Shown here in pieces: positions 1,375-47,424 of a DNA stretch of 47,560 nt. The notes beneath the pieces were generated by a model that was not told the DNA's origin, made no database searches, and saw only the letters and a list, made by a program, of their open reading frames with translations. Position 1 is the first letter of the stretch, and every line of letters begins with the position of its first letter. A program made the translations under genes and the position numbers. Location of the stretch: the IMG/VR virus record IMGVR_UViG_3300022177_000082, positions 1 to 47,560 of that record. One strand, given 5' to 3'. This stretch comes from a virus. Taxonomy: Duplodnaviria; Caudoviricetes.

Positions 1375-2997
1375 TCATATCCTCAATTCGCTCTTCCGTT
1401 TCGCTGCGGCCTGTTCAAGGTATGCCGCTTCATTCCACAGCCCCCCTGGGACCTGCCAGAGTCTGATCTGTCGTCGGAGAGGCTGGACCCATACCTTAAC
1501 CGCCTTACACCCAATCCGGGTCAAGAGTTGAGCCAAGGTAGAGCCGTCCGGAGAGACGAACATCTTCGTGTCCATGAGATGCTTACGGATCACCGGCAGT
1601 GAGATGTGTGCTTGATTGTTGATAAACATGGGGCGGCCGGTGTTGAGGATATCTTGAGAGTCAAGCTCCACGTCTGTGGGCGGCACCTCGGTGAGATATT
1701 CAGCAACATACCCCTTGAGTTGCCCGATGACAGTCGCCTCTTCCCCGGTTGTGATGGTCTCACAGGCGTTCAGGATGCACTGCACGATGTTGTCCCAGTC
1801 CTTGGGCTTGTAGCGTGACAGGACCACGCCGCACACGTCCATGAGCTTCTGTCGGAATCGGCTCTGCATGTTCAGGTCGGTGGCGTAGACGACCAGGTCA
1901 ACCCCACCGATGACCAGGACATATTGTTTCCGGTCCCCGGCGTAGGCGTAGATGCGCTGGATCGGCAGGCCCAGGCGGTCGACTAGGTGGGAGATCATGC
2001 TCAGACGCTTTTCCGCTTCAGATAGCTCCTCCGCCGTGTCATCTCTGCCCTGTCTGGGGAGTATCCCGTTAGCCATGATGCGCCTGGCGGCCTCGGCCCG
2101 GGCGATAGAGTCAACGGTTGCGTTGATCTCCGTCACGGGCATAGGTGGCCGGTTGAGCATGTTCCAGGCCAGGAGGATTTGCTTGACTCGGTCTTTGGGG
2201 AGCGCCGCCTGTCCCAGGTAGTAGCCGGCCAGCTTCGCACAGGTGGAGTTGCGCAGGCCGGATTCTACGCCCATCATGGCGACCCCCACCCAATCCCCTT
2301 CATCGACGAGTTCGGGATCGTGTAGGACGACCCGGCCGTCTGCCGGGACCTCGCCGTCTTCAGGGGGCGCAACCTCGCCCCGGTCGATGAGCTCCAGGAG
2401 CCATTCCGGGCAGGGGGCCACGTCTACGTCGACCGGGGCAAAGCCATCCAGCCAGCGATATGTGGCCCCGGAGGGATGCACCGAGGGCGGCGCCACGACA
2501 TAACCGCCATCGCCCTTGATGTCGATTCCGGGGAGCTTGCGGATCATGTTCTTGACGACGCCACCCGGGTGGCGGAAATAGATGTGGGCCTTCCCGGGGC
2601 TGCTCTCGGCCCGGGGCGTGGGCGGCAGGAAACAGCCGTTCGCCTTCAGGTAGCGCCAACCGTCATCACTGTCGACATCGAGCACGACCAGGCCGGAGAC
2701 GGCCCCGCAGATCACGGCGACATTGGCTTGCGGGTGCTGGTTACGCCACAAGGATATCTCTGCCTCACTCGGTCTTCGGGTCTGGTATTGTTTCCAAGCT
2801 GAGATGAGTGGCTGCTTACTCATCGCCTTAATAGGGATGATGCTCCACCCCCTATCACAATAGATTTGACCTAATGGCCAAAGAGAATGCGTGCTCTCCT
2901 TACTTGGGGAAAGAGCATCGATCCTATCTACGTTGCCAGAACCAGGTCTGATTTCATAGGAGAGGTTATTGAAGAATCGTTGAGCTTCTGAGGTCAT
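1375..2997 (-). CDS. Bifunctional DNA primase/polymerase (Prim-Pol) with PriCT domain
   Basis: GWSIIPI, NVAVICG..SGLVVLDVD, HIYF, GIDIKGDGGYVVAPPSVHPSGATYRW, and 'G.RNST..KLAG' PriCT motifs; AGGAGG RBS. Confidence 0.9.
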   Translation of the reverse strand: MTSEAQRFFNNLSYEIRPGSGNVDRIDALSPSKESTHSLWPLGQIYCDRGWSIIPIKAMSKQPLISAWKQYQTRRPSEAEISLWRNQHPQANVAVICGAVSGLVVLDVDSDDGWRYLKANGCFLPPTPRAESSPGKAHIYFRHPGGVVKNMIRKLPGIDIKGDGGYVVAPPSVHPSGATYRWLDGFAPVDVDVAPCPEWLLELIDRGEVAPPEDGEVPADGRVVLHDPELVDEGDWVGVAMMGVESGLRNSTCAKLAGYYLGQAALPKDRVKQILLAWNMLNRPPMPVTEINATVDSIARAEAARRIMANGILPRQGRDDTAEELSEAEKRLSMISHLVDRLGLPIQRIYAYAGDRKQYVLVIGGVDLVVYATDLNMQSRFRQKLMDVCGVVLSRYKPKDWDNIVQCILNACETITTGEEATVIGQLKGYVAEYLTEVPPTDVELDSQDILNTGRPMFINNQAHISLPVIRKHLMDTKMFVSPDGSTLAQLLTRIGCKAVKVWVQPLRRQIRLWQVPGGLWNEAAYLEQAAAKRKSELRI

Positions 2998-3467
2998 ACA
3001 CGCCCTCCTTGGCGTAAGAAGTTATTACTTAGTTAGAACCGGTATACAAACGGGCTGATTGCTTATTAGCTATTGGATTGCCCTCTTAAGCAGAAAAAAT
3101 TCTCCTCCAAGGACCTTTCCAAGTCGTTCCCCAGGAACAGAACCCGACGTCCAAGTTTGATGAAAGGGATAAAACTCTACTTACACCACCTCCTGACAGT
3201 CAGCAGGCTAAGGCCCCCTAAAAAACTGCCCCGCCCGCTTGGCATCGAACAGACAATCGTCCATCGCAGTCTCCATATATGCTTATATCATATATACATT
3301 GTGGTGTCAAGTTTATGACTACCATATATTGTGCTTGCCTCATTCGACTGCATCGGCAAATTGGATTGCCCAGTTGACATATGATCGGGGTAAAGAATAA
3401 ATACCTTGAGGCTGTTGACTTTCTCTGGTAGCTTTTTTTTATGCTGAACGGAAAGGAGGTGATAAGA

Positions 3468-4577
3468 GTGGCGAATGTTCAGAAGGTCAGCCGCAAGGAT
3501 GGCAGGACGGCTTACCGTATTGACTACCGGTCCCCGGATGGCGGCCGGGTCCGCAAGACCTTCGACAAGAAGGTCGACGCTCAGGCCTACCTCGGGAAGG
3601 TCCTGGCGGCCAAGCGGGAGGGGCAGTATGAGGAAATCTTTGGCATCCCCGCCAAGGCGATCACTTTCGAGGAACTCGCCGGCCACTATGTCGAGAACTA
3701 CCGTGGTCAGAAGTGCTTCGAGACGTTCAAGCGGGCTCACGTCATGACCCTGCTGGACGTCTTTGGAAGGCGGCCGTTGTCGAAGATCACCTACCTGGAC
3801 CTGGAAAAGCTCCGTAACAACCGCAAGCTGACCCCCACCTGGAAGGGGACCGTCCGGGCGGATGCCAGCGTCAACCGTGAAATGGCCGTTCTCAAGCACA
3901 TGCTCAACAAGGCCGTGGAGTGGGGGATGCTGGAGGTGAACCCGTTCCGCAAGGGTAGCAGCCTCATGCTCAAGGAGAACAACAAGCGGATGCGCTTTCT
4001 CTCCGAGGGCGAGGTTGCGGCCCTGCTGCGGGAGAGCCCGGATCACCTGCGTCCCATTGTCCAGACGGCCCTCTTGACAGGCATGAGGTCAGGTGAGATA
4101 CTTACTCTCACGTGGGATCAGGTCCGAGATGGCATCATCTACCTAACCGAGACCAAGAGCAACAAGGGCAGGCAGATACCCGTCAATGGCTCCCTGGAGA
4201 TCATCTTGAAGGAGCTACGGCGGCGCTATCAGTTGCGCTCGTCTTACGTCTTCTGCAAGGAAGACGGGAGCCGCTACGGCTCCGTGAAGACGGCCTTTGG
4301 CAGCGCCTGCCGGCGGGCGGGGATAACCGGCTTCAGGTTCCACGATCTGAGGCACACCTTCGCCTCGCACATGGTCATGGCCGGAGTTGACATGAAGACG
4401 CTGCAGGAGATTCTCGGGCACGCTGACATCAAGATGACGATGCGTTATGCTCACCTGTCCCCTGGACACCTGCGTGAGGCCGTGCAGGCAGTGAACCATC
4501 TTGTGCGGACCGATGGACACCTTTTGGACACCCTGTCGCCGCAACGAAATGTCGCAAACACTAAGCAGTTGATATAA
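3468..4577 (+). CDS. int: Tyrosine integrase of the left (satellite-like) element
   Basis: TGMRSGE, HDLRH, LGH..MTMRY catalytic motifs; N-terminal arm-binding domain; GTG start after AGGAGGT. Confidence 0.95.
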   Translation: MANVQKVSRKDGRTAYRIDYRSPDGGRVRKTFDKKVDAQAYLGKVLAAKREGQYEEIFGIPAKAITFEELAGHYVENYRGQKCFETFKRAHVMTLLDVFGRRPLSKITYLDLEKLRNNRKLTPTWKGTVRADASVNREMAVLKHMLNKAVEWGMLEVNPFRKGSSLMLKENNKRMRFLSEGEVAALLRESPDHLRPIVQTALLTGMRSGEILTLTWDQVRDGIIYLTETKSNKGRQIPVNGSLEIILKELRRRYQLRSSYVFCKEDGSRYGSVKTAFGSACRRAGITGFRFHDLRHTFASHMVMAGVDMKTLQEILGHADIKMTMRYAHLSPGHLREAVQAVNHLVRTDGHLLDTLSPQRNVANTKQLI

Positions 4578-4584: not shown

Positions 4585-4661
4585 GCGCCCATAGCTCAGC
4601 TGGACAGAGCAACGGACTACGAATCCGTGTGTCGGGAGTTCGAATCTCTCTGGGCGCGCCA
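4585..4661 (+). tRNA. tRNA-Arg (anticodon ACG)
   Basis: Acceptor stem GCGCCCA/TGGGCGC, D arm TAGCTCAGCTGGA, anticodon loop CT-ACG-AA, T loop GTTCGAATC, encoded CCA; 77 nt. Confidence 0.97.
4615..4661 (+). repeat. attL core (47 bp)
   Basis: Identical to 47174-47220; starts at the anticodon arm. Confidence 0.95.
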
Positions 4662-4674
4662 AAATTGATAAGAT

Positions 4675-4715: not shown

Positions 4716-4739
4716 CAGTCGTGCCTTCAGTCGTGCTTT
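4716..4739 (+). repeat. Tandem 12-bp putative integrase arm-type site (copy 1)
   Basis: CAGTCGTGCCTT-CAGTCGTGCTTT; recurs at 6884-6907 and 47027-47050. Confidence 0.75.
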
Positions 4740-4756
4740 GGTTTGAGAGGCCGCAA

Positions 4757-5761
4757 TTATTGCCCCCTCATCTCCTTGGCGATGCCCCACACCTCCCGGT
4801 CGAACAGGTCAAAACCCTGGAAGATCTCTTCGTAGAAATTCAAGGCCGCCTGGGTGTAGAGGGCGATGGCCTTGATCTCCTGCCGGGCCTGGTCGGCCTC
4901 GGCGTCCTCGTGCTCCGCCAGCACCTTCCAGATCTTGGACTTCCGGTAATTGTCCCGCTTCAACAGGTCGTCCGGCAGCAGGCACAGCTCCTCGGTGGAC
5001 GGCGGCTCCACCCCGTCCAGCAGCGCCAGCACGATGAGCAGCCCGGCCCGGGCGTGCCGGGGGTTGGGGTGCAGAAAGCAGGCGTGCAGGCGTTTCAGCA
5101 CCCCCCGGGGCACCGGCAGGGGCTCGGCGTCGGAGCCGGGGGCGTACTGCGGCTCCGGAGCCGGCAGGGCCAGGGTCCCGCGCAGGTCCTCGGGGAGGTG
5201 GTCGTAAAACACCTGCTGCAATTGCGGGTCCGCCAGGATGCGCGCCAGATATTCTTTGCGCTTCAGGTGCAGGGCGTTCTTCAGGGCCGCCAGCTTCTCG
5301 CCCTGCCGGGCCAGCGTCTCCCGCAGCCGGCTGATTTCCTCCTCCCGAAAGCCGTCCGGCGGGGGAAGCTGCGGGGCCCGGGCCGCCTCCAGCTCCAGGA
5401 CCCGCCGCCGCAGCCGCTCCATGCCCGTGGTGAGCATATGCGAGGCCCAGTGGCGGAAGTGCTTGGCCCGGGGGGTGTCGGCAAAGAAACCGATCTTGTG
5501 CGCGGCCTGGAGATTGAAAACGCGGTATTGATGAAAACGGTTTTTGCCATCGGCGCTCCGCGTCGTCAATCTGACGACGCGGACAAGTCCCTCGAACTCA
5601 TCCCGATTGCGTTCATAAATTTTCATTACACCCTTGCGGGGTTCGGCAAATCCCAACGCCTTGCCGATGTCCTCGGCCGTGAACCATTCCTCACCCTCAT
5701 GTTCGATGACGTTCAATTGCACGTCTTCGAACGCCTCCTGCCGAATGATCTCTGCTGCCAT
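4757..5761 (-). CDS. Bro-N domain antirepressor-like protein (copy 1)
   Basis: 'EGEEWFTAEDIGKALGF' Bro-N motif, 'RAKHFRHW', coiled coil; AGGAGGT RBS; paralog at 25042-26079. Confidence 0.85.
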   Translation of the reverse strand: MAAEIIRQEAFEDVQLNVIEHEGEEWFTAEDIGKALGFAEPRKGVMKIYERNRDEFEGLVRVVRLTTRSADGKNRFHQYRVFNLQAAHKIGFFADTPRAKHFRHWASHMLTTGMERLRRRVLELEAARAPQLPPPDGFREEEISRLRETLARQGEKLAALKNALHLKRKEYLARILADPQLQQVFYDHLPEDLRGTLALPAPEPQYAPGSDAEPLPVPRGVLKRLHACFLHPNPRHARAGLLIVLALLDGVEPPSTEELCLLPDDLLKRDNYRKSKIWKVLAEHEDAEADQARQEIKAIALYTQAALNFYEEIFQGFDLFDREVWGIAKEMRGQ

Positions 5762-5815
5762 GACTACCTCCTACGTGATTTTTCGGGAATCGACAGTTCC
5801 CGTCCTAAAAAAACA

Positions 5816-5887
5816 AACCTGCCAGTGCTGTCGAGGCTCACGTAGGAGGCCCCCCGGCCCTCGCGGTAACCGGGACACTGGCAGGCT
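5816..5887 (-). ncRNA. C4-like antisense RNA (copy 1)
   Basis: Closing stem GCCTGCCAGTG/CACTGGCAGGT, GCGA-capped hairpin, second hairpin exposing TACGTGA plus adjacent CTCGAC; complementary targets at 5941-5955 and 5770-5796. Confidence 0.8.
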
Positions 5888-5961
5888 ATGTTTCTGGTTA
5901 AAAATTAAAAATGACCGCTTAAGCCGGGGGTCAGCCGCCTTACGTGAATCTCGACATTTTC

Positions 5962-5989
5962 ATTTTACCCGGCCGTCTGAAAAAGTCAA
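5962..5989 (-). promoter_or_regulatory. Sigma70 promoter for the C4-like RNA/bro operon (copy 1)
   Basis: TTGACT-16 nt-TAAAAT; hexamers conserved in copy 2 while the spacer varies. Confidence 0.7.
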
Positions 5990-6062
5990 TGGAGCACAAA
6001 ATTAATGATGCCGCCGAATATGCCGATTACTAAGTCGAGGTGAAGCGAAAGGGTGAATAACC

Positions 6063-6317
6063 ATGATCGGAATGCTTCAGATTATTACATACTTACTCTG
6101 CGTCTATCTCGTGTTCAAAGGCATTGAAATCTTTCAAATCGCCATGGCCAACAATGGTAACTTCCGCATACCTTGCCGGGTTTTGGGCATTGTTGCCGTG
6201 CTTGCCAGCATTTTCCTCGCCTTTTACTTTACTCATAAGATTGACACCCATGCCAATAGCGTTTCGGAAGGAATGAAATATCAAGAATTTCAGTTAAGAA
6301 AAAATTTATTTAGATAA
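6063..6317 (+). CDS. Small two-TM membrane protein (copy 1)
   Basis: 84 aa, two hydrophobic helices; near-identical paralog at 24204-24458. Confidence 0.8.
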   Translation: MIGMLQIITYLLCVYLVFKGIEIFQIAMANNGNFRIPCRVLGIVAVLASIFLAFYFTHKIDTHANSVSEGMKYQEFQLRKNLFR

Positions 6318-6348
6318 TCAATAAATAATAATATTGGAACTATGACAA

Positions 6349-6768
6349 GTGAACAAACCATCGTTAATAATAAAACTAATAATATTATTAATGTTGATTT
6401 CAATTGTAACATTGTTAGGATGCATCTCTGTTCCCATACCAAAGGAGGCCGGATCGTTTAAGGTTGGAGGTAATAAAATAATCGCCAGTGATGAGATTAT
6501 AAGTCATATAAGGCCGGGGATAACTACAAAAGATGAAGTTATTTCATTGATAGGAAAGCCGTTTGGCGTTACAATAGATAATAAAAATAATATAACAAAT
6601 TGGTCATATTTATATTATGAATTATATTCACACAGCCCAACCAATAGCAAACATGTAACATTATTTCTTAATTTTGATAAAAATGGCGTCATTTTGCCTG
6701 ATCCAAATGGGAAAACGAGGTTTAAAACAACATGCATTGAAGGAAAATCGTTTACGATTCGTGATTGA
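6349..6768 (+). CDS. Lipoprotein with BamE/SmpA-like motif
   Basis: Lipobox LLGC; 'IRPGITTKDEVISLIGKP...WSY' motif; very AT-rich. Confidence 0.7.
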   Translation: MNKPSLIIKLIILLMLISIVTLLGCISVPIPKEAGSFKVGGNKIIASDEIISHIRPGITTKDEVISLIGKPFGVTIDNKNNITNWSYLYYELYSHSPTNSKHVTLFLNFDKNGVILPDPNGKTRFKTTCIEGKSFTIRD

Positions 6769-6875: not shown

Positions 6876-7904
6876 TTATTTTTTGATCGTGCTTTCAGTC
6901 GTGCTTTGTTCTGAGACGCCTTCCAGAAGCCCCATGGCTTGGCGGACCGAATCGCCCAAAGATTGGAGATAATGATCCGTGGTCGTGGCTCGTTCGTGGC
7001 CCAGGATTTTCTGGATATCGGTGAGGGAGGCGCCTTTTTGGGCCAGAGTGGAGGCGGTATGATGGCGAAAGTCGTGATAATTGATTTTGGGGATGCCAAG
7101 ACGCCGGCATGCGGTTGGGATGAATCTGTCCCGGTAATCGTAATTGCGGCCAGTTCTGGGATTAGTGAAAACATAGGGGCTGTTTTTATCTCGCTGCTCC
7201 CAGGCGTATTGCAGGGACTGCTCTACATCCGGCACCATGGGAATGAGCCGGGGAGTCCGGACTCCGTGTTTCTTTTTACGGGTCCACAGGCGGATCTGCC
7301 GGCGCTCAAAGTCGATGTCCTCCCAGGTGAGACCGTTGATTTCCCGTACCCGGCCCCCGGTGAGCCAGATGACGATGAGATAAGCCCGATCCAGGGCGCC
7401 CACGCTGAGGAGCAGTCGGGAGATATTTTCCCGGGGCGGAATGGTCTTTACGGCCTTTTCCACGGGGAATTTGGGAATGCCAAGACAGGGGTTGCGGTCA
7501 AGGAGCCCGTCCTTGACGGCCTGGCTGAAGACCGCTTTGGCGGCGGTGAGGTGACGGTTGGCGTTATGGTTGCCGAGCTCCCCGGCCAGGTCAATGAGCC
7601 GCTCCCGTAGCATCGCCGTGGTGATGGCATCGAGGGGCAGAGGCGCCCAATCGGCAAAGCGCCGCAGCATGGCCCGGTTGTCCCGGTAATGCTGCGGGGT
7701 GCAGTAGGCCTGGACCAGGTTCAAGCGGCTATTGCCCGCCTCCCCAAATGTTATGCGGGTCCGGCACTGGCGCAGCCGCTCTTTTTCTTTGGCTTCCGCG
7801 GCCTGGGCCTCGGCCTTGGTCAGAAAGTCGTACTGTCCGAGCCGCTTCCCCTGGTGCTTGAATTCGTAACTCCACTTGCCGCTTGGCCGCTTCCAGACGC
7901 CCAT
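6876..7904 (-). CDS. int: Prophage tyrosine integrase
   Basis: TGGRVRE, HDFRH, LGH...TTDHY catalytic motifs. Confidence 0.95.
   Translation of the reverse strand: MGVWKRPSGKWSYEFKHQGKRLGQYDFLTKAEAQAAEAKEKERLRQCRTRITFGEAGNSRLNLVQAYCTPQHYRDNRAMLRRFADWAPLPLDAITTAMLRERLIDLAGELGNHNANRHLTAAKAVFSQAVKDGLLDRNPCLGIPKFPVEKAVKTIPPRENISRLLLSVGALDRAYLIVIWLTGGRVREINGLTWEDIDFERRQIRLWTRKKKHGVRTPRLIPMVPDVEQSLQYAWEQRDKNSPYVFTNPRTGRNYDYRDRFIPTACRRLGIPKINYHDFRHHTASTLAQKGASLTDIQKILGHERATTTDHYLQSLGDSVRQAMGLLEGVSEQSTTESTIKK
6884..6907 (+). repeat. Tandem arm-type site (copy 2), inside the int 3' end
   Basis: TGATCGTGCTTT-CAGTCGTGCTTT. Confidence 0.7.
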
Positions 7905-13980: not shown

Positions 13981-14475
13981 TTAATCAGAGCTTTTGTCCC
14001 CGGACGAATTCGACAATAATCCCCCAGACTCCGCCAGCGGCCGATTTTTTATCTCAATGATCCGATCCCGGATCATTTCCAGATAGCCCTCCACCTTGGC
14101 CAGTTCAGTCGGACTGGCAAATTCCCAATTTGAAAAGACTTCGAGGAAGAGTTCTATGATCCTGGCATACTCACTCGCCTGAACCCGTTTAATCTTGGCA
14201 GCCCAAAGAGGATCAATATTGCAGTCGGCTATTAAGGTTTCGGGAGGATGACCAAGACCTAACCAAATTTTAATTGCATAATCCAATTTTATTCCACGGC
14301 CCTGCTTCCCATCTCTCAAGTAACCTAAAAATTCAGGAGTGCAATTGCATTTCTCGGAGAGCTTGGCAAGAGTAATTTCTTTTCGCCCTTTCTTCGGGCA
14401 GATTTGGCGGATAATCGAAGCAAGTTTGTTGATAATTTCTATGGTCACAGGATGTGGCTCAATTAAGTCCTTCAT
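13981..14475 (-). CDS. CI-like HTH repressor (no peptidase domain seen)
   Basis: 'TLAKLSEKCNCTPEFLGYL' Xre-like HTH; divergent from the cro-like gene. Confidence 0.65.
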   Translation of the reverse strand: MKDLIEPHPVTIEIINKLASIIRQICPKKGRKEITLAKLSEKCNCTPEFLGYLRDGKQGRGIKLDYAIKIWLGLGHPPETLIADCNIDPLWAAKIKRVQASEYARIIELFLEVFSNWEFASPTELAKVEGYLEMIRDRIIEIKNRPLAESGGLLSNSSGDKSSD

Positions 14476-14566: not shown

Positions 14567-14836
14567 ATGATCATAGACGAATATCTCAAAAAACATAATT
14601 TTAAGCTCTATCCGTGGGCCAAATCCAAAGGGATATCGCCCGAGATTATAACTATGTATCGGAAGGGCCGCCGAGGCTTGTCATTGGAGACCGTAGCAAA
14701 AATCGTCGCCGCCACGGGGGGAGAGGTCACTTATGAGGACCTGGTGGCGGAGATGACCGAGCGCCGGGCAGATCGGCGGGCTGCGGACAAACCGGATAAC
14801 GGCGGGGAGGCGGTGGAGATCCCGCCGGGGATTTAG
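14567..14836 (+). CDS. Cro-like HTH protein
   Basis: 'AKSKGISPEII...GRRGLSLETVAKIVAATGGEVTYEDL' Cro/YdaS-like motif. Confidence 0.85.
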   Translation: MIIDEYLKKHNFKLYPWAKSKGISPEIITMYRKGRRGLSLETVAKIVAATGGEVTYEDLVAEMTERRADRRAADKPDNGGEAVEIPPGI

Positions 14837-15365: not shown

Positions 15366-15881
15366 ATGGTCCCCATGAATTACGAAGACTTTGTCCGGGA
15401 AAAGACCGAGATCACCAAGAGCTGGCTCCAGCAGGCGCTGCTGCGGTCCTCCAAGTCGGTGGCGGCCCTGGCCGAGGCCATGGGCTTCCGGTCGGACAGC
15501 AGCCTCTACAAGGCGGCCAACCCCATGGAGAACCACCGCCTGCACCTGGAAAATCTCCCGATTCTCCTCCATGAGACGGGAGATTTTGCCATTCTGGACG
15601 AGATCGAGGCCATGTTCGGCCGGGCGGCCTTCCGCCTTCCCTCGGCCGATCTCGGCCTGCCGGAGATCAACGAGGAGACCCGCCGGGCCATCAAGGAGTT
15701 CAGCGACTATCTGGGAGAGGTGGCCGGCGCGGTTGAAGACGGCAGGGTCACCCGGCTGGAACGGGAGGCCATCGAGCGGGAGTGCTCCCAGGCCATGGCC
15801 CAGCTGGCGGCCCTCCTGGAGGCGGTGCGGCAGCTTCACCATAATCCCGGCAAACCTTTGAAGGCGGTGGCCGGGGACTGA
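15366..15881 (+). CDS. Phage regulatory CII-family protein
   Basis: 'LAEAMG...LYKAANP', 'TGDFAILD', 'AVEDGRVT..E...IERE' as in the 186 CII/CP76 family. Confidence 0.85.
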   Translation: MVPMNYEDFVREKTEITKSWLQQALLRSSKSVAALAEAMGFRSDSSLYKAANPMENHRLHLENLPILLHETGDFAILDEIEAMFGRAAFRLPSADLGLPEINEETRRAIKEFSDYLGEVAGAVEDGRVTRLEREAIERECSQAMAQLAALLEAVRQLHHNPGKPLKAVAGD

Positions 15882-24203: not shown

Positions 24204-24458
24204 TTATCTAAATAACTTATTTCTTAATTGATATTCTTGATATTTCATCCCTTCCGAAACGCTATTGGCATGGGTGTCAATCATATGAGTGAAGTAAAAG
24301 GCGATGAAAATGCTGGCAAGCACGGCAACAATGCCCAAAACCCGGCAGGGTATGCGGAAGTTACCATTATTGGCCATGGCGATTTGAAAAATTTCAACGC
24401 CTTTGAACACGAGATAGACGCAGAGTAAGTATGTAATAATTTGAAGCATTCCGATCAT
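24204..24458 (-). CDS. Small two-TM membrane protein (copy 2)
   Basis: Paralog of 6063-6317 with few substitutions. Confidence 0.8.
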   Translation of the reverse strand: MIGMLQIITYLLCVYLVFKGVEIFQIAMANNGNFRIPCRVLGIVAVLASIFIAFYFTHMIDTHANSVSEGMKYQEYQLRNKLFR

Positions 24459-24498
24459 GATTATTAAGTCCTTAATAAATTTAATAAGTTATGTTTAT

Positions 24499-24747
24499 TT
24501 ACCTGAAAAGATGGGGGCAGAGGTAGGGATGGCCGGCCTTGATGCAGGTGAAAGGTCCGGCTCCTATCAGCCGACTGCCATCCGGAGCCAGGTAATATTT
24601 TTCTCCGGTCATCGGATCGACATACGGGTGCCCGGGGCCCTTGCTGCGGTCATACCAGGCATGAGAATAGACGTTGCCTCCGGCGCAACCTGCCAGGCTG
24701 AAAATTATAGTAATGGTAATCATGAGAGACATAGCTTTAAATAACAT
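24499..24747 (-). CDS. Small lipoprotein
   Basis: Lipobox LAGC after a hydrophobic signal. Confidence 0.7.
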   Translation of the reverse strand: MLFKAMSLMITITIIFSLAGCAGGNVYSHAWYDRSKGPGHPYVDPMTGEKYYLAPDGSRLIGAGPFTCIKAGHPYLCPHLFR

Positions 24748-24813
24748 ATAGTTATCTTTTCAATTCAATATATTAATCGGCATATTCGGTGGCATCATTA
24801 ATTTTGTGCCCCA

Positions 24814-24841
24814 TTGACTTTTTCAGCCAGCCGAGTAAAAT
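24814..24841 (+). promoter_or_regulatory. Sigma70 promoter for the C4-like RNA/bro operon (copy 2)
   Basis: TTGACT-16 nt-TAAAAT. Confidence 0.7.
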
Positions 24842-24914
24842 ATAATCGTCAAGACTCCCAAGACGGCTGACCCCCGGCTTAAGCGGTCATTTTTCTTTTT
24901 TTAACCAGAGATAT

Positions 24915-24985
24915 AGCCTGCCAGTGTCCCGGTTACCGCGAGGGCCGGGGGGTCTCCTTGGGAGCCTTGACAGCACTGGCAGGTT
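24915..24985 (+). ncRNA. C4-like antisense RNA (copy 2)
   Basis: Same scaffold as copy 1; exposes CTTGGGAG and CTTGAC, complementary to 24848-24862 and 25007-25035. Confidence 0.8.
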
Positions 24986-25041
24986 TGTTTTTTTTTAGGA
25001 CGGGAACTGTCAATTCCCGAAAAAATCCCAAGGAGGTAGTC

Positions 25042-26079
25042 ATGGCAGCAGAGATCATCCGGCAGGAGGCGTTCGAGGACGTGGCATTGAACGTCATCGA
25101 ACATGAGGGCGAGGAGTGGTTCACGGCCGAGGACATCGGTAAGGCTTTGGGGCTGACGGACCCATCAAGGGCAGTTCGGAAAATTTATCAACGAAATCGT
25201 GATGAATTTGAGGGTATCGATTCAGGGACCAAGTTGGTCCCCCACAGACTTGTGCGCGTAGTCAATCTGACTACGCGCCAAAAAGACGGCAAGTTGATTC
25301 CTCGGAAAGTAAAAGTATTCAACCTCCAAGCCGTCCACAAAATCGGCTTTTTCGCCGACACGCCCCGGGCCAAGCACTTCCGCCACTGGGCCTCGCACAT
25401 GCTCACCACCGGCATGGAGCGGCTGCGGCAACGGGTCCTGGAGCTGGAGGCGGCCCGGGCCCCGCAGCTTCCAGCCCCGGACGGCTTCCGGGAGGAGGAA
25501 ATCAGCCGGCTGCGGGAGACGCTGGCCCGGCAGGGCGAGAAGCTGGCGGCCCTGAAGAACGCCCTGCACCTGAAGCGCAAAGAATATCTGGCGCGCATCC
25601 TGGCGGACCCGCAATTGCAGCAGGTGTTTTACGACCACCTCCCCGAGGACCTGCGCGAGACCCTGGCCCTGCCGGCTCCGGAGCCGCAGTACGCCCCCGG
25701 CTCCGACGCCGAGCCCCTGCCGGTGCCCCGGGGGGTGCTGAAACGCCTGCACGCCTGCTTTCTGCACCCCAACCCCCGTCACGCCCGGGCCGGGCTGCTC
25801 ATCGTGCGGGCGCTGCTGGACGGGGTGGAGCCGCCGTCCACCGAGGAGCTCTGCCTGCTGCCGGACGACCTGTTGAAGCGGGACAACTACCGGAAATCGA
25901 AGATCTGGAAGGTGCTGGCGGAGCACGAGGACGCCGAGGCCGACCAGGCCCGGCGGGAGATCAAGGCCATCGCCCTCTACACCCAGGCGGCCCTGAATTT
26001 CTATGAAGAGATCTTCCAGGGCTTTGACCTGTTCGACCGGGAGGTGTGGGGCATCGCCCGGGAGATGAGGGCAGACTAA
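25042..26079 (+). CDS. Bro-N domain antirepressor-like protein (copy 2)
   Basis: Paralog of 4757-5761; AAGGAGGT RBS; 11-aa insertion and divergence inside the Bro-N domain. Confidence 0.85.
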   Translation: MAAEIIRQEAFEDVALNVIEHEGEEWFTAEDIGKALGLTDPSRAVRKIYQRNRDEFEGIDSGTKLVPHRLVRVVNLTTRQKDGKLIPRKVKVFNLQAVHKIGFFADTPRAKHFRHWASHMLTTGMERLRQRVLELEAARAPQLPAPDGFREEEISRLRETLARQGEKLAALKNALHLKRKEYLARILADPQLQQVFYDHLPEDLRETLALPAPEPQYAPGSDAEPLPVPRGVLKRLHACFLHPNPRHARAGLLIVRALLDGVEPPSTEELCLLPDDLLKRDNYRKSKIWKVLAEHEDAEADQARREIKAIALYTQAALNFYEEIFQGFDLFDREVWGIAREMRAD

Positions 26080-29989: not shown

Positions 29990-30958
29990 ATGCCTGAAAA
30001 ATTAGCTCTGTCCAGCCGGGCCATTATCGGCCGGTTTTATCAGACCCTGGAGACGGCCCTGGGGGGTTCCTGGGCCACCCTGATCGGCATGCTGTTCCCC
30101 AGTGACCAGGAAAGCGAGACCTACAAGTGGCTGGGCATGGCTCCGGCGCTGCGGGAATGGATCGACGGCCGCCAGGCCAAGGGGCTGCGGTCCAACGGGT
30201 TCACGATCCAAAACAAGACCTTCGAAGCGACTCTGGCCATTGCCGTGGATGATCTCCGGCGGGACAAGACCGGCCAGATTCTGGTGCGCATCGATGAAAT
30301 GGCGGGCCGGGTGGCGGGCCACTGGGAATCCCTGGTCTCCAGTTTGATTTTGAACGGCAATGCCGCGGCCTGCTATGACAGCCAGAATTTCTTTGCCACG
30401 GCCCACAGCGAAGGCGATTCGGGCACGCAGCTGAACCTGCTGGCGGCAGCCCAGGTGCCGGCCCTGAACGTGGCCGTCGCCGCGGCTCCCACCGCCAATG
30501 AGATGGCGGAAGCCATCCTGGGCGTCATTGCCTATTTCTATGGCTACAAAGACGATCAGGGGCAGCCTATCAACGGCGACGCCCGGAATTTTCTGGTCAT
30601 GACCCCCGTGCCGCTGTGGGGTGCGGCCGTGGCCGGCGTTACCAGTCAGCTGCTCAACACCGGCTCCGGGTCCCGGGACAACCCGTTGCTGGCGCTCACC
30701 CGGAATCAGGGCTTGACGGTGAACGTGGTGGCGAATCCGCGGCTGAACTGGACCACTGACTTTGCGTTGTTCCGCACCGACGGCCGGGCCAAGCCGTTCA
30801 TTCTCCAGGAGGAGCAGGGGGTGCAGGTTTCCGCCATTGCGGAGGGCTCCGAGGAGGAGTTCAAGAACGACCGGCACCTCTATGGGATCAAGCTCATCGG
30901 CAATGCCGGCTACGGCCTCTGGCAGCACGCCATCCGGGCGACCTTGAGCAGCAGCTAA
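29990..30958 (+). CDS. Major capsid protein, Mu gpT-like
   Basis: 'ETYKWLG..P.LREWI..R', 'CYDSQNFF...H', 'KPFILQ', 'AGYGLWQ'. Confidence 0.93.
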   Translation: MPEKLALSSRAIIGRFYQTLETALGGSWATLIGMLFPSDQESETYKWLGMAPALREWIDGRQAKGLRSNGFTIQNKTFEATLAIAVDDLRRDKTGQILVRIDEMAGRVAGHWESLVSSLILNGNAAACYDSQNFFATAHSEGDSGTQLNLLAAAQVPALNVAVAAAPTANEMAEAILGVIAYFYGYKDDQGQPINGDARNFLVMTPVPLWGAAVAGVTSQLLNTGSGSRDNPLLALTRNQGLTVNVVANPRLNWTTDFALFRTDGRAKPFILQEEQGVQVSAIAEGSEEEFKNDRHLYGIKLIGNAGYGLWQHAIRATLSSS

Positions 30959-47026: not shown

Positions 47027-47050
47027 TAGTCGTGCTTTCAGTCGTGCTTT
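47027..47050 (+). repeat. Tandem arm-type site (copy 3) near attR
   Basis: TAGTCGTGCTTT-CAGTCGTGCTTT. Confidence 0.75.
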
Positions 47051-47173
47051 TATTTCTCAGGAAAATTATATCCGCATAAATAGGGCAATTTTGCACCCGC
47101 CACAAGAGCACAAAATTATGTTAAATTGCATTAATTCTATTAATATTATTACAAAAACAATCAATGGGGGATA

Positions 47174-47220
47174 GACTACGAATCCGTGTGTCGGGAGTTC
47201 GAATCTCTCTGGGCGCGCCA
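47174..47220 (+). repeat. attR core (displaced 3' part of tRNA-Arg)
   Basis: 47-bp identity with 4615-4661. Confidence 0.95.
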
Positions 47221-47227
47221 GAAATAT

Positions 47228-47304: not shown

Positions 47305-47424
47305 TTAGGCCGGACTTGCAGCCAGATTGTTCAGCAGGTTTACAGATTCCTGAAGGCGGCCGGGGGAGAGGTGCGCATAGCGCATGGTCATCTTGATGTC
47401 AGAGTGGCCCAAAAGCTTATGCAT
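47305..47424 (-). pseudogene. Tyrosine integrase C-terminal remnant
   Basis: 'LLGHSDIKMTMRYAHLSPG' nearly identical to the left integrase; no HxxR motif upstream in this frame. Confidence 0.75.

What the first reader, a model, noticed from the sequence alone, without database searches (positions are those of the whole stretch)
24814..25044. Two orthogonal C4-like antisense RNA switches in one prophage, with three-way compensatory changes
Seen: the leaders of the two bro genes (5762-5989 minus strand; 24814-25041 plus strand) share promoter hexamers, a terminator-like hairpin with U-tract, and a ~70-nt three-stem RNA. Their main differences fall at three linked places. Copy 2: upstream site GTCAAG-a-CTCCCAAG, RNA CTCCTTGGGAG-c-CTTGACAG, downstream site CTGTCAA (loop of a CGGGAA/TTCCCG hairpin) and TCCCAAGGAG overlapping the RBS. 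Copy 1: upstream GTCGAG-a-TTCACGTA, RNA CTCCTACGTGAG-c-CTCGACAG, downstream CTGTCGA and TCACGTAGGAG. Each RNA is complementary to its own two targets and mismatched to those of the other copy. Known: this a1b1 / a'b' / a2b2 layout is the P1/P7 C4 and P4 CI antisense logic, where such changes determine heteroimmunity between different phages. Inference: this prophage carries two insulated RNA-guided circuits on one scaffold, a two-channel secondary immunity system, with no icd-like ORF between the RNA and bro.
Basis: partly seen in the sequence, partly recalled or inferred. Interest (0 to 1): 0.9.

Follow-up and report, generated by a model that had tools for sequence, protein, structure and literature searches.

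The report
Two re-coded c4-like RNA locks
One prophage carries two copies of a Bro-family gene, each behind a leader whose three matching pairing sites have changed together, so each leader's folded RNA is predicted to silence mainly its own gene, likely by the antisense logic known from phages P1 and P4.

Summary
Both bro leaders lie inside one attL/attR-bounded prophage. Their stems are identical and their three pairing sites have changed together. The RNA is a three-way junction with strong covariation. It is a divergent relative of Rfam c4-2: 3 of 17 homolog loci pass the cut-off, but the window copies miss c4-2, C4 and c4-a1b1. Guide and upstream site covary in two homolog sets (0 of 100,000; 1 of 40,320 permutations) but not in a third (4 of 15). 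Each RNA is predicted to prefer its own targets by 3.7-11 kcal/mol; copy 2 is leakier. No RNA data cover the leader. 'Secondary immunity' is unproven, since homologs head varied genes. This scan noted multi-copy coded c4-like switches before, on other prophages. Verdict: a real new variant of a known kind.

The parts
24814..24841 (+). Copy 2 sigma-70-type promoter, 10 of 12 consensus matches, 16-nt spacer
   Evidence: a -35 hexamer is seen at the same place in homolog leaders
24848..24862 (+). Copy 2 upstream target b1-a1 at the predicted start of the transcript
24864..24902 (+). Copy 2 overlapping hairpin pair: an alternative stem next to a1, and weak hairpin T1 (24868-24889) followed by a U-tract
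24914..24986 (+). Copy 2 three-way-junction RNA: main stem P1, GNRA-capped P2, P3 with a' (24954-24964), single-stranded b' (24966-24973)
24984..24996 (+). U-tract directly after P1; likely 3' end or intrinsic terminator of the RNA
   Evidence: U-rich tail in most homologs; function inferred
25001..25035 (+). Copy 2 downstream targets: b2 in a hairpin loop (25007-25013) and a2 over the Shine-Dalgarno (25026-25035)
25042..26079 (+). Bro-N protein, 345 aa, lying between the terminase large subunit and portal genes
24204..24747 (-). Divergent genes of cassette 2: 82-aa lipoprotein-like ORF (24499-24747) and 84-aa hydrophobic ORF (24204-24458)
   Evidence: lipoprotein reading inferred from the sequence
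5962..5989 (-). Copy 1 promoter with the same hexamers
5941..5956 (-). Copy 1 upstream target b1-a1
5900..5937 (-). Copy 1 overlapping hairpin pair and U-tract; stems identical to copy 2
5815..5888 (-). Copy 1 three-way-junction RNA with guide a'b' at 5848-5828
5767..5802 (-). Copy 1 downstream targets b2 (5796-5790) and a2 (5778-5767)
4757..5761 (-). Bro-N protein, 334 aa, 89% identical to the other copy, lying between attL and the integrase (6876-7904)
6063..6768 (+). Divergent genes of cassette 1: 84-aa ORF (93% identical to 24204-24458) and a BamE-domain protein
4615..4664 (+). attL (3' part of tRNA-Arg)
47174..47223 (+). attR

Best explanation
Each bro leader carries a folded three-way-junction RNA and matching sites on both sides of it, and is likely a self-locking antisense switch of the c4-2/C4 kind whose two copies are predicted to act largely independently. 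ON state (predicted): in a cell without the RNA, the 5' b1-a1 site pairs in cis with the emerging a'b' guide, stem P1 cannot close, polymerase passes the U-tract, the Shine-Dalgarno is free and Bro is made in a burst. OFF state (inferred): some transcripts fold the junction, end at the U-tract and are trimmed to a free RNA of about 70 nt. That RNA binds b1-a1 of new cognate transcripts in trans, which lets P1 close and yields more RNA, and binds b2/a2 to cover the Shine-Dalgarno of any read-through message. The a' segment is the address. The two copies keep one scaffold but different addresses, so a copy is silenced mainly by its own RNA; copy-2 RNA is predicted to leak more onto copy 1 than the reverse.
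For: Shown in sequence: three-way matched changes, none in stems. Structure: 102 cells with a change on both sides against 34.8 in shuffles, 0 of 500 (alignment fitted to the model). Address covariation: 14 of 18 elements have a 6-nt or longer cognate match, mean 6.8 against 3.4 non-cognate, 0 of 100,000 permutations. In 8 hits found by the RNA model alone, 7 match their own leader and b' covaries too, 1 of 40,320 permutations; 3 of 4 further viral hits also match. Kinship: c4-2 above cut-off in 3 of 17 loci. Predicted switch: P(P1) goes from 0.0 to 0.98 in both copies when b1-a1 is blocked, and from 0.0 to 1.0 when the 5' heads are swapped in silico. Accessibility-corrected energies, cognate against non-cognate: RNA2 -11.9/-6.5 upstream and -8.9/-5.2 downstream; RNA1 -13.6/-3.3 and -16.1/-5.1. 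Precedent for trans action on sites flanking the RNA: passages of PMC4825925 (P4 CI) and PMC5320573 (C4).
Against: No expression data. The window copies themselves match no Rfam C4-type model at E <= 10. At full length the cis pairing beats P1 in only 4 of 20 elements; it exceeds 0.5 in 11 of 19 only in unfinished transcripts. In a third set of 15 hits only 4 have a strict cognate match (5,194 of 100,000 permutations), so the scaffold persists without an address. Downstream targets of 9 nt or more occur in 4 of 28 elements and in 0 of the 15. Whole-molecule cofolding gives unfavourable binding for RNA2 even to its own targets (+2.7, +1.3 kcal/mol), although that method cannot model loop-loop contacts. 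P1 is followed by U, not CCA, and no processing route is identified.
Confidence: 0.6

Rival explanations
1. The leader is a cis-only attenuator. a'b' chooses between the upstream site (read-through, free Shine-Dalgarno), P1 (termination) and the downstream site (translation off); folding kinetics or a protein set the balance. The matched changes would then be compensatory drift, with no free RNA and no orthogonality to speak of.
For: All covariation tests are blind to cis versus trans. Cis pairing is the predicted minimum-energy fold of both window leaders and forms in 11 of 19 unfinished transcripts, against a non-cognate mean of about 0.1. A U-rich tail follows P1 in most homologs.
Against: Between the two copies the address changed at three places while all stems stayed identical, which fits selection for specificity better than drift (inference). 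The guide is displayed in a loop and a junction as in C4 (PMC5320573, section 16). Homologs score as c4-2.
Confidence: 0.2
2. The RNA acts in trans, but mainly at the first hairpin: binding next to the alternative stem lets T1 form and stops transcription about 45 nt after the start, as recalled for P4 t1. This would be negative, not positive, feedback on RNA synthesis.
For: An alternative stem starts directly after a1 and overlaps T1 in 16 of 19 selected leaders at -3 kcal/mol or better, against a mean of 10.3 and a maximum of 14 in 200 loop shuffles. All 4 T1 pairs show changes on both sides. Most homologs lack downstream targets, so their control must run through the upstream site.
Against: Blocking b1-a1 raises P(T1) by more than 0.05 in only 7 of 19 leaders, and not in either window copy (0.79 to 0.70; 0.00 to 0.04). 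Covariation in the alternative stem is thin (3 cells changed on both sides). T1 is weak.
Confidence: 0.15
3. One reading: the two RNAs form a two-channel secondary immunity system that blocks the antirepressors of two groups of superinfecting phages. This can hold together with the best explanation.
For: PHROGs 'anti-repressor' matches for both proteins; P1/P7 heteroimmunity through c4 (passage of PMC12197685). Many different addresses circulate in related elements. Both cassettes carry divergent small membrane or lipoprotein-like genes.
Against: The PHROGs matches cover only the Bro-N domain (about aa 6-150). The C-terminal part has no usable match. Of 19 homolog downstream ORFs scanned, 1 is Bro-N, others are an S24 peptidase, an HTH_17 protein, an integrase N-terminal domain and CobA, and 14 have no Pfam match. 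No other element with either address was found.
Confidence: 0.3

Closest known systems
[quoted passage not shown]
   Same: Three-way junction, P2 with a bulge and GNRA cap, variable P3 loop, single-stranded linker before the 3' strand of P1, U tail. Three homolog loci pass the cut-off; three more score 28-33.5 bits.
   Different: The window copies give no match at E <= 10. The internal loop in P1 of the c4-2 consensus is absent. What the paper's supplement says about c4-2 targets could not be read.
Phage P1/P7 immI C4 antisense RNA (Rfam RF01695; targets c4-a1b1, RF03163)
   Same: Three stems, a' and b' guides, specificity in a', targets on both sides, control of a ribosome-binding site in front of an antirepressor-type gene (PMC5320573 section 16; passage of PMC12197685).
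   Different: No match to RF01695 or RF03163 at the leaders. No icd-like ORF. Here a' covers the Shine-Dalgarno, whereas PMC5320573 assigns that to b'. A U-tract follows P1 directly. Two addresses sit in one phage rather than in two.
Satellite phage P4 CI RNA with seqA and seqC
   Same: Processed RNA that pairs with one site upstream and one downstream of itself and causes premature termination (passage of PMC4825925); associated with Bro-network genes (passages of PMC10111431). A terminator hairpin between the upstream site and the RNA recalls P4 t1 (recalled, not read).
   Different: Here the RNA lies in an untranslated leader with its own promoter, not inside a Bro-network gene, and there is no kil-like ORF. 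No isrK or C4 model match.
Acinetobacter baumannii Group 1 C4-like sRNAs (PMC5320573)
   Same: Many copies of one scaffold in one genome (21), variable only in a', expressed and apparently processed.
   Different: In the parts read, they were not linked to cognate flanking targets or to paralogous genes in one prophage.

Membership tests
c4-2 (RF02944) | Covariance-model score at or above 41 bits | tested here: not met
   Window: no match at E <= 10. Homologs: L200 45.8, L353 42.0, L178 41.2 among 17 loci.
c4-2 (RF02944) | Three-way junction with GNRA-capped P2 and variable P3 loop | tested here: met
c4-2 (RF02944) | Internal loop in P1 | tested here: not met
   Gaps against the consensus; continuous P1
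P1/P7 C4 (RF01695) | Covariance-model score at or above 45 bits | tested here: not met
P1/P7 C4 (RF01695) | a' in a hairpin loop and single-stranded b', complementary to an upstream a1/b1 site | tested here: met
   in copy 2 much of a' is held in the P3 stem
P1/P7 C4 (RF01695) | Upstream target folds as c4-a1b1 (RF03163) | tested here: not met
   One chance match at 30002, none at the leaders
P1/P7 C4 (RF01695) | Downstream a2/b2 target at a ribosome-binding site | tested here: met
   Both window copies; rare in homologs
P1/P7 C4 (RF01695) | icd ORF between the RNA and the antirepressor gene | tested here: not met
P1/P7 C4 (RF01695) | Stable RNA released by RNase P and acting in trans | not testable with these tools
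   Three runs kept as contigs gave no cover of the leader
P1/P7 C4 (RF01695) | Controlled gene is an antirepressor, giving secondary immunity | tested here: inconclusive
   Bro-N domain only; no structural match
P4 CI RNA system | One guide with targets upstream and downstream of the RNA | tested here: met
P4 CI RNA system | RNA-dependent premature termination | tested here: inconclusive
   Folding models favour P1 plus U-tract in the window copies but not T1
P4 CI RNA system | RNA encoded inside a Bro-network gene with a kil-type ORF | tested here: not met

The most novel reading that the evidence does not exclude
A c4-2-type RNA is at once the terminator of its own leader and the trans-acting key that makes that terminator form, giving a bistable RNA-only lock. 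After duplication or capture the prophage re-coded both the RNA address and the DNA-binding segment of the Bro protein, so that it runs two insulated channels, each with its own RNA input and its own DNA output.
Probability: 0.25. Interest if true: 0.65.

Novelty: new variant of a known kind. Interest (0 to 1): 0.4.

Why it matters
It gives a branch of the c4-2 motif explicit targets and a testable mechanism; no tested function for c4-2 appeared in the paper passages I could read. The two copies are a ready-made natural control pair: same promoter hexamers and stems, different address, so trans action and insulation can be settled with four reporter combinations. About 25 further natural address/target pairs on one 70-nt scaffold could serve as orthogonal riboregulators. 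The principle itself (P1/P7, P4) is decades old, which caps the surprise.

Tried and rejected
Rfam on the window: only the tRNA at gathering level and chance matches at E <= 10. The first exact 15-mer scan gave 119 loci and no homolog. blastn of the leader against 50,697 GenBank phage records found nothing. The protein-alignment scan of viral contigs gave one distant Bro locus without the RNA. Sequencing runs: three small-share runs kept as contigs, none covering the leader; uninformative, not evidence of absence. A second single phage with two copies was not found in 8 viral records searched whole, all fragments of 8-34% completeness; two genomes had two hits on different contigs (G001, G189). 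The Bro structure model is weak (pLDDT 66, pTM 0.39) and has no fold match at E <= 0.001; the Atlas and PDB sequence searches were blank. One search used a mis-registered structure and is superseded. One search stopped on an error and was rerun. 'Two separate prophages' was rejected by the att repeat. L127 was dropped as a chance match, and L311 and L322 as the window's own copies. RNA-enhanced T1 termination as the main output in these two copies was not supported by folding. The supplement of PMC5737381 could not be read and may already describe c4-2 targets.

Full report
Observation. The only Rfam match at gathering level in the window is tRNA-Arg at 4585-4658. Its 3' 50 nt recur at 47174-47223, so 4615-47223 is one prophage holding both copies. 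Copy 1 lies between attL and the integrase; copy 2 lies between the terminase large subunit and portal genes. Each is a cassette: a promoter with 10 of 12 consensus matches, a leader, a Bro-N gene, and divergent small genes, one of which is also duplicated (93%). Of 31 differing columns in the leader, 14 fall in the pairing sites (55 columns) and 17 outside (179 columns); none falls in a stem. No ORF of 20 aa or more starts between RNA and bro.

The RNA family. A Bro relative in a viral contig (L120) showed an independent leader with its own matched upstream site. Pattern scans of viral, genome and metagenome contigs gave 223 pattern matches; 27 distinct ones extended the main stem by 4 or more pairs. 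One was dropped as chance and two as the window's own copies, leaving 24 homologs. A model built from 23 sequences realigned them: 88% of cells pair and 102 cells change on both sides, against 34.8 in shuffles, 0 of 500 (the alignment leans to the model and the invariant core was the search pattern). The fold is a three-way junction with a GNRA-capped P2, a variable P3 loop and a U-rich tail. The model hit 8 of 151 genomes of G001's phylum, 13 of 41 of its family and 4 of 8 of G053's order. Named records with homologs are Thermodesulfobacteriota, Desulfobacteraceae and Desulfosarcina, so a Desulfobacterota host is inferred, not shown.

Family membership. Rfam c4-2 (RF02944) passes its cut-off in 3 of 17 homolog loci, with the same topology but without the P1 internal loop. 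The window copies match neither c4-2, C4 nor c4-a1b1 at E <= 10. I therefore file them as a divergent c4-2-like branch that works like C4, not as formal members.

Address covariation. Of 26 elements, 20 had a b1-like motif 40-100 nt upstream; 2 duplicates were dropped. In the remaining 18, the longest Watson-Crick run between a' and the cognate a1 region averaged 6.8, against 3.4 for non-cognate pairs; 14 of 18 reached 6 or more; 0 of 100,000 permutations matched this. In 8 hits found by the RNA model alone, 7 matched their own leader in two blocks, with b' changing in step as well; only the true assignment of 40,320 reached the observed mean. Three of 4 further viral hits matched too. Against this, only 4 of 15 later hits reached 10 matched bases and the test was not significant (5,194 of 100,000); several keep promoter and hairpins but have lost the address. 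Downstream targets of 9 nt or more occur in 4 of 28 earlier elements (both window copies, L309, L347) and in none of those 15, so the a2/b2 module is an addition in this lineage.

Insulation. With opening costs included, RNA2 binds its own upstream and downstream sites at -11.9 and -8.9 kcal/mol, and those of copy 1 at -6.5 and -5.2; RNA1 gives -13.6 and -16.1 against -3.3 and -5.1. Discrimination comes from a'. The b' of RNA2 pairs fully with copy-1 b sites through one G-U pair, so leakage is predicted to be one-sided. Whole-molecule cofolding is unfavourable for RNA2 even on its own targets, but cannot model loop-loop contacts.

Mechanism. The full leader of either copy folds with b1-a1 paired in cis to a'b', which abolishes P1; blocking b1-a1 restores it (0.0 to 0.98; a control block does not), and so does swapping the 5' heads between copies in silico (0.0 to 1.0). 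Since a U-tract follows P1, I infer that cis pairing is the read-through state and that RNA bound in trans restores termination and makes more RNA, while a2/b2 binding covers the Shine-Dalgarno. This cis effect holds at full length in only 4 of 20 elements and in 11 of 19 unfinished transcripts. A second conserved feature is a pair of overlapping hairpins right after a1 (16 of 19 selected leaders, against at most 14 in 200 loop shuffles), but blocking b1-a1 favours T1 in only 7 of 19 and in neither window copy. None of these tests separates cis from trans; the argument for trans is kinship to C4 and the change of address with unchanged stems.

The controlled genes. The Bro proteins are 89% identical, with differences concentrated at about aa 37-100, a segment that is also the most variable part of the Bro-N region among 9 relatives and maps to a helix and a beta-hairpin in a weak model. 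Different DNA specificity is an inference; so is capture of one cassette by recombination from a related phage. The 'anti-repressor' label covers only Bro-N. Among 19 homolog downstream ORFs, 1 is Bro-N, 4 have other Pfam matches and 14 have none, so the leader is a portable control module and the immunity reading is open.

Literature. Read: PMC5320573 (passages and section 16: C4 anatomy, RNase P processing, 21 variable-address copies in one genome); PMC12197685 (one passage); PMC4825925 and PMC10111431 (passages on P4 CI); PMC8201110 (passages); PMC2864571 (table passages and supplement hits); PMC5737381 (two passages, supplement unreadable). The primary P1 and P4 papers were not read, and the P4 t1 detail is recalled. 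Five searches listed no paper on two differently coded C4-type RNAs in one prophage; the library lacks most subscription journals. The scan's own notes report such sets in several other prophages (unchecked) and none by sequence for this leader.

Verdict. The feature is real and not chance. It is a new variant of a known antisense logic. Likely trans-acting and largely insulated (0.6); a cis-only switch is not excluded (0.2); the immunity role is unproven (0.3). Interest 0.4.

Noticed in passing
L200:2572-3061, L178:2571-3060, L170:2892-3299: The same c4-2-like scaffold lies just downstream of cobalamin riboswitches in Desulfosarcina and Desulfobacteraceae records, without a cognate a1 site; a b1-like hexamer precedes the riboswitch terminator in L200 and L170. 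L217, L254, L327 and L348 have similar sequence. Possibly a phage RNA taken into a host leader.
   Followed up: partly
L414, L416, L417, L418, L421: Copies that keep promoter, overlapping hairpins and scaffold but have a GC-rich closed P3 and no matching upstream site.
   Followed up: partly
L309, L343, L347: AT-rich metagenome elements with the same core and a longer P3 whose guide matches both the 5' leader and the first codons of the next gene.
   Followed up: partly
window 25135-25366 and the matching part of 4757-5761: The two Bro genes differ mostly in this Bro-N segment (23-45 of 60 columns identical) and are about 96% identical downstream, which suggests a swapped specificity module.
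   Followed up: partly
window 4719-4752, 6887-6920, 47030-47063: Three copies of a 34-nt repeat with an internal tandem core, near attL, in the 3' end of the integrase and near attR; likely integrase arm sites. Two of them bracket cassette 1.
   Followed up: partly
window 1375-4577, with 4402-4501 and 47324-47423: A second element (Prim-Pol primase and a tyrosine integrase ending 7 nt before the tRNA) lies outside attL; part of its integrase has a 72% inverted copy just beyond attR.
   Followed up: no
window 25001-25020: The arms of the b2 hairpin resemble the copy-2 address, so copy-2 RNA can also pair across b2 and the 3' arm in both copies (-14.0 and -13.7 kcal/mol raw); the copy-2 code may be the older one.
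   Followed up: partly
window 24773-24813 and 5990-6030: A 40-nt block upstream of the -35 is nearly identical in both copies; in copy 2 it holds a divergent promoter-like site.
   Followed up: no
window 13981-14475, 14567-14836, 15366-15881: Likely primary immunity region: a leftward 164-aa ORF without Pfam match, a divergent Cro-like HTH and a CII (CP76) gene.
   Followed up: no
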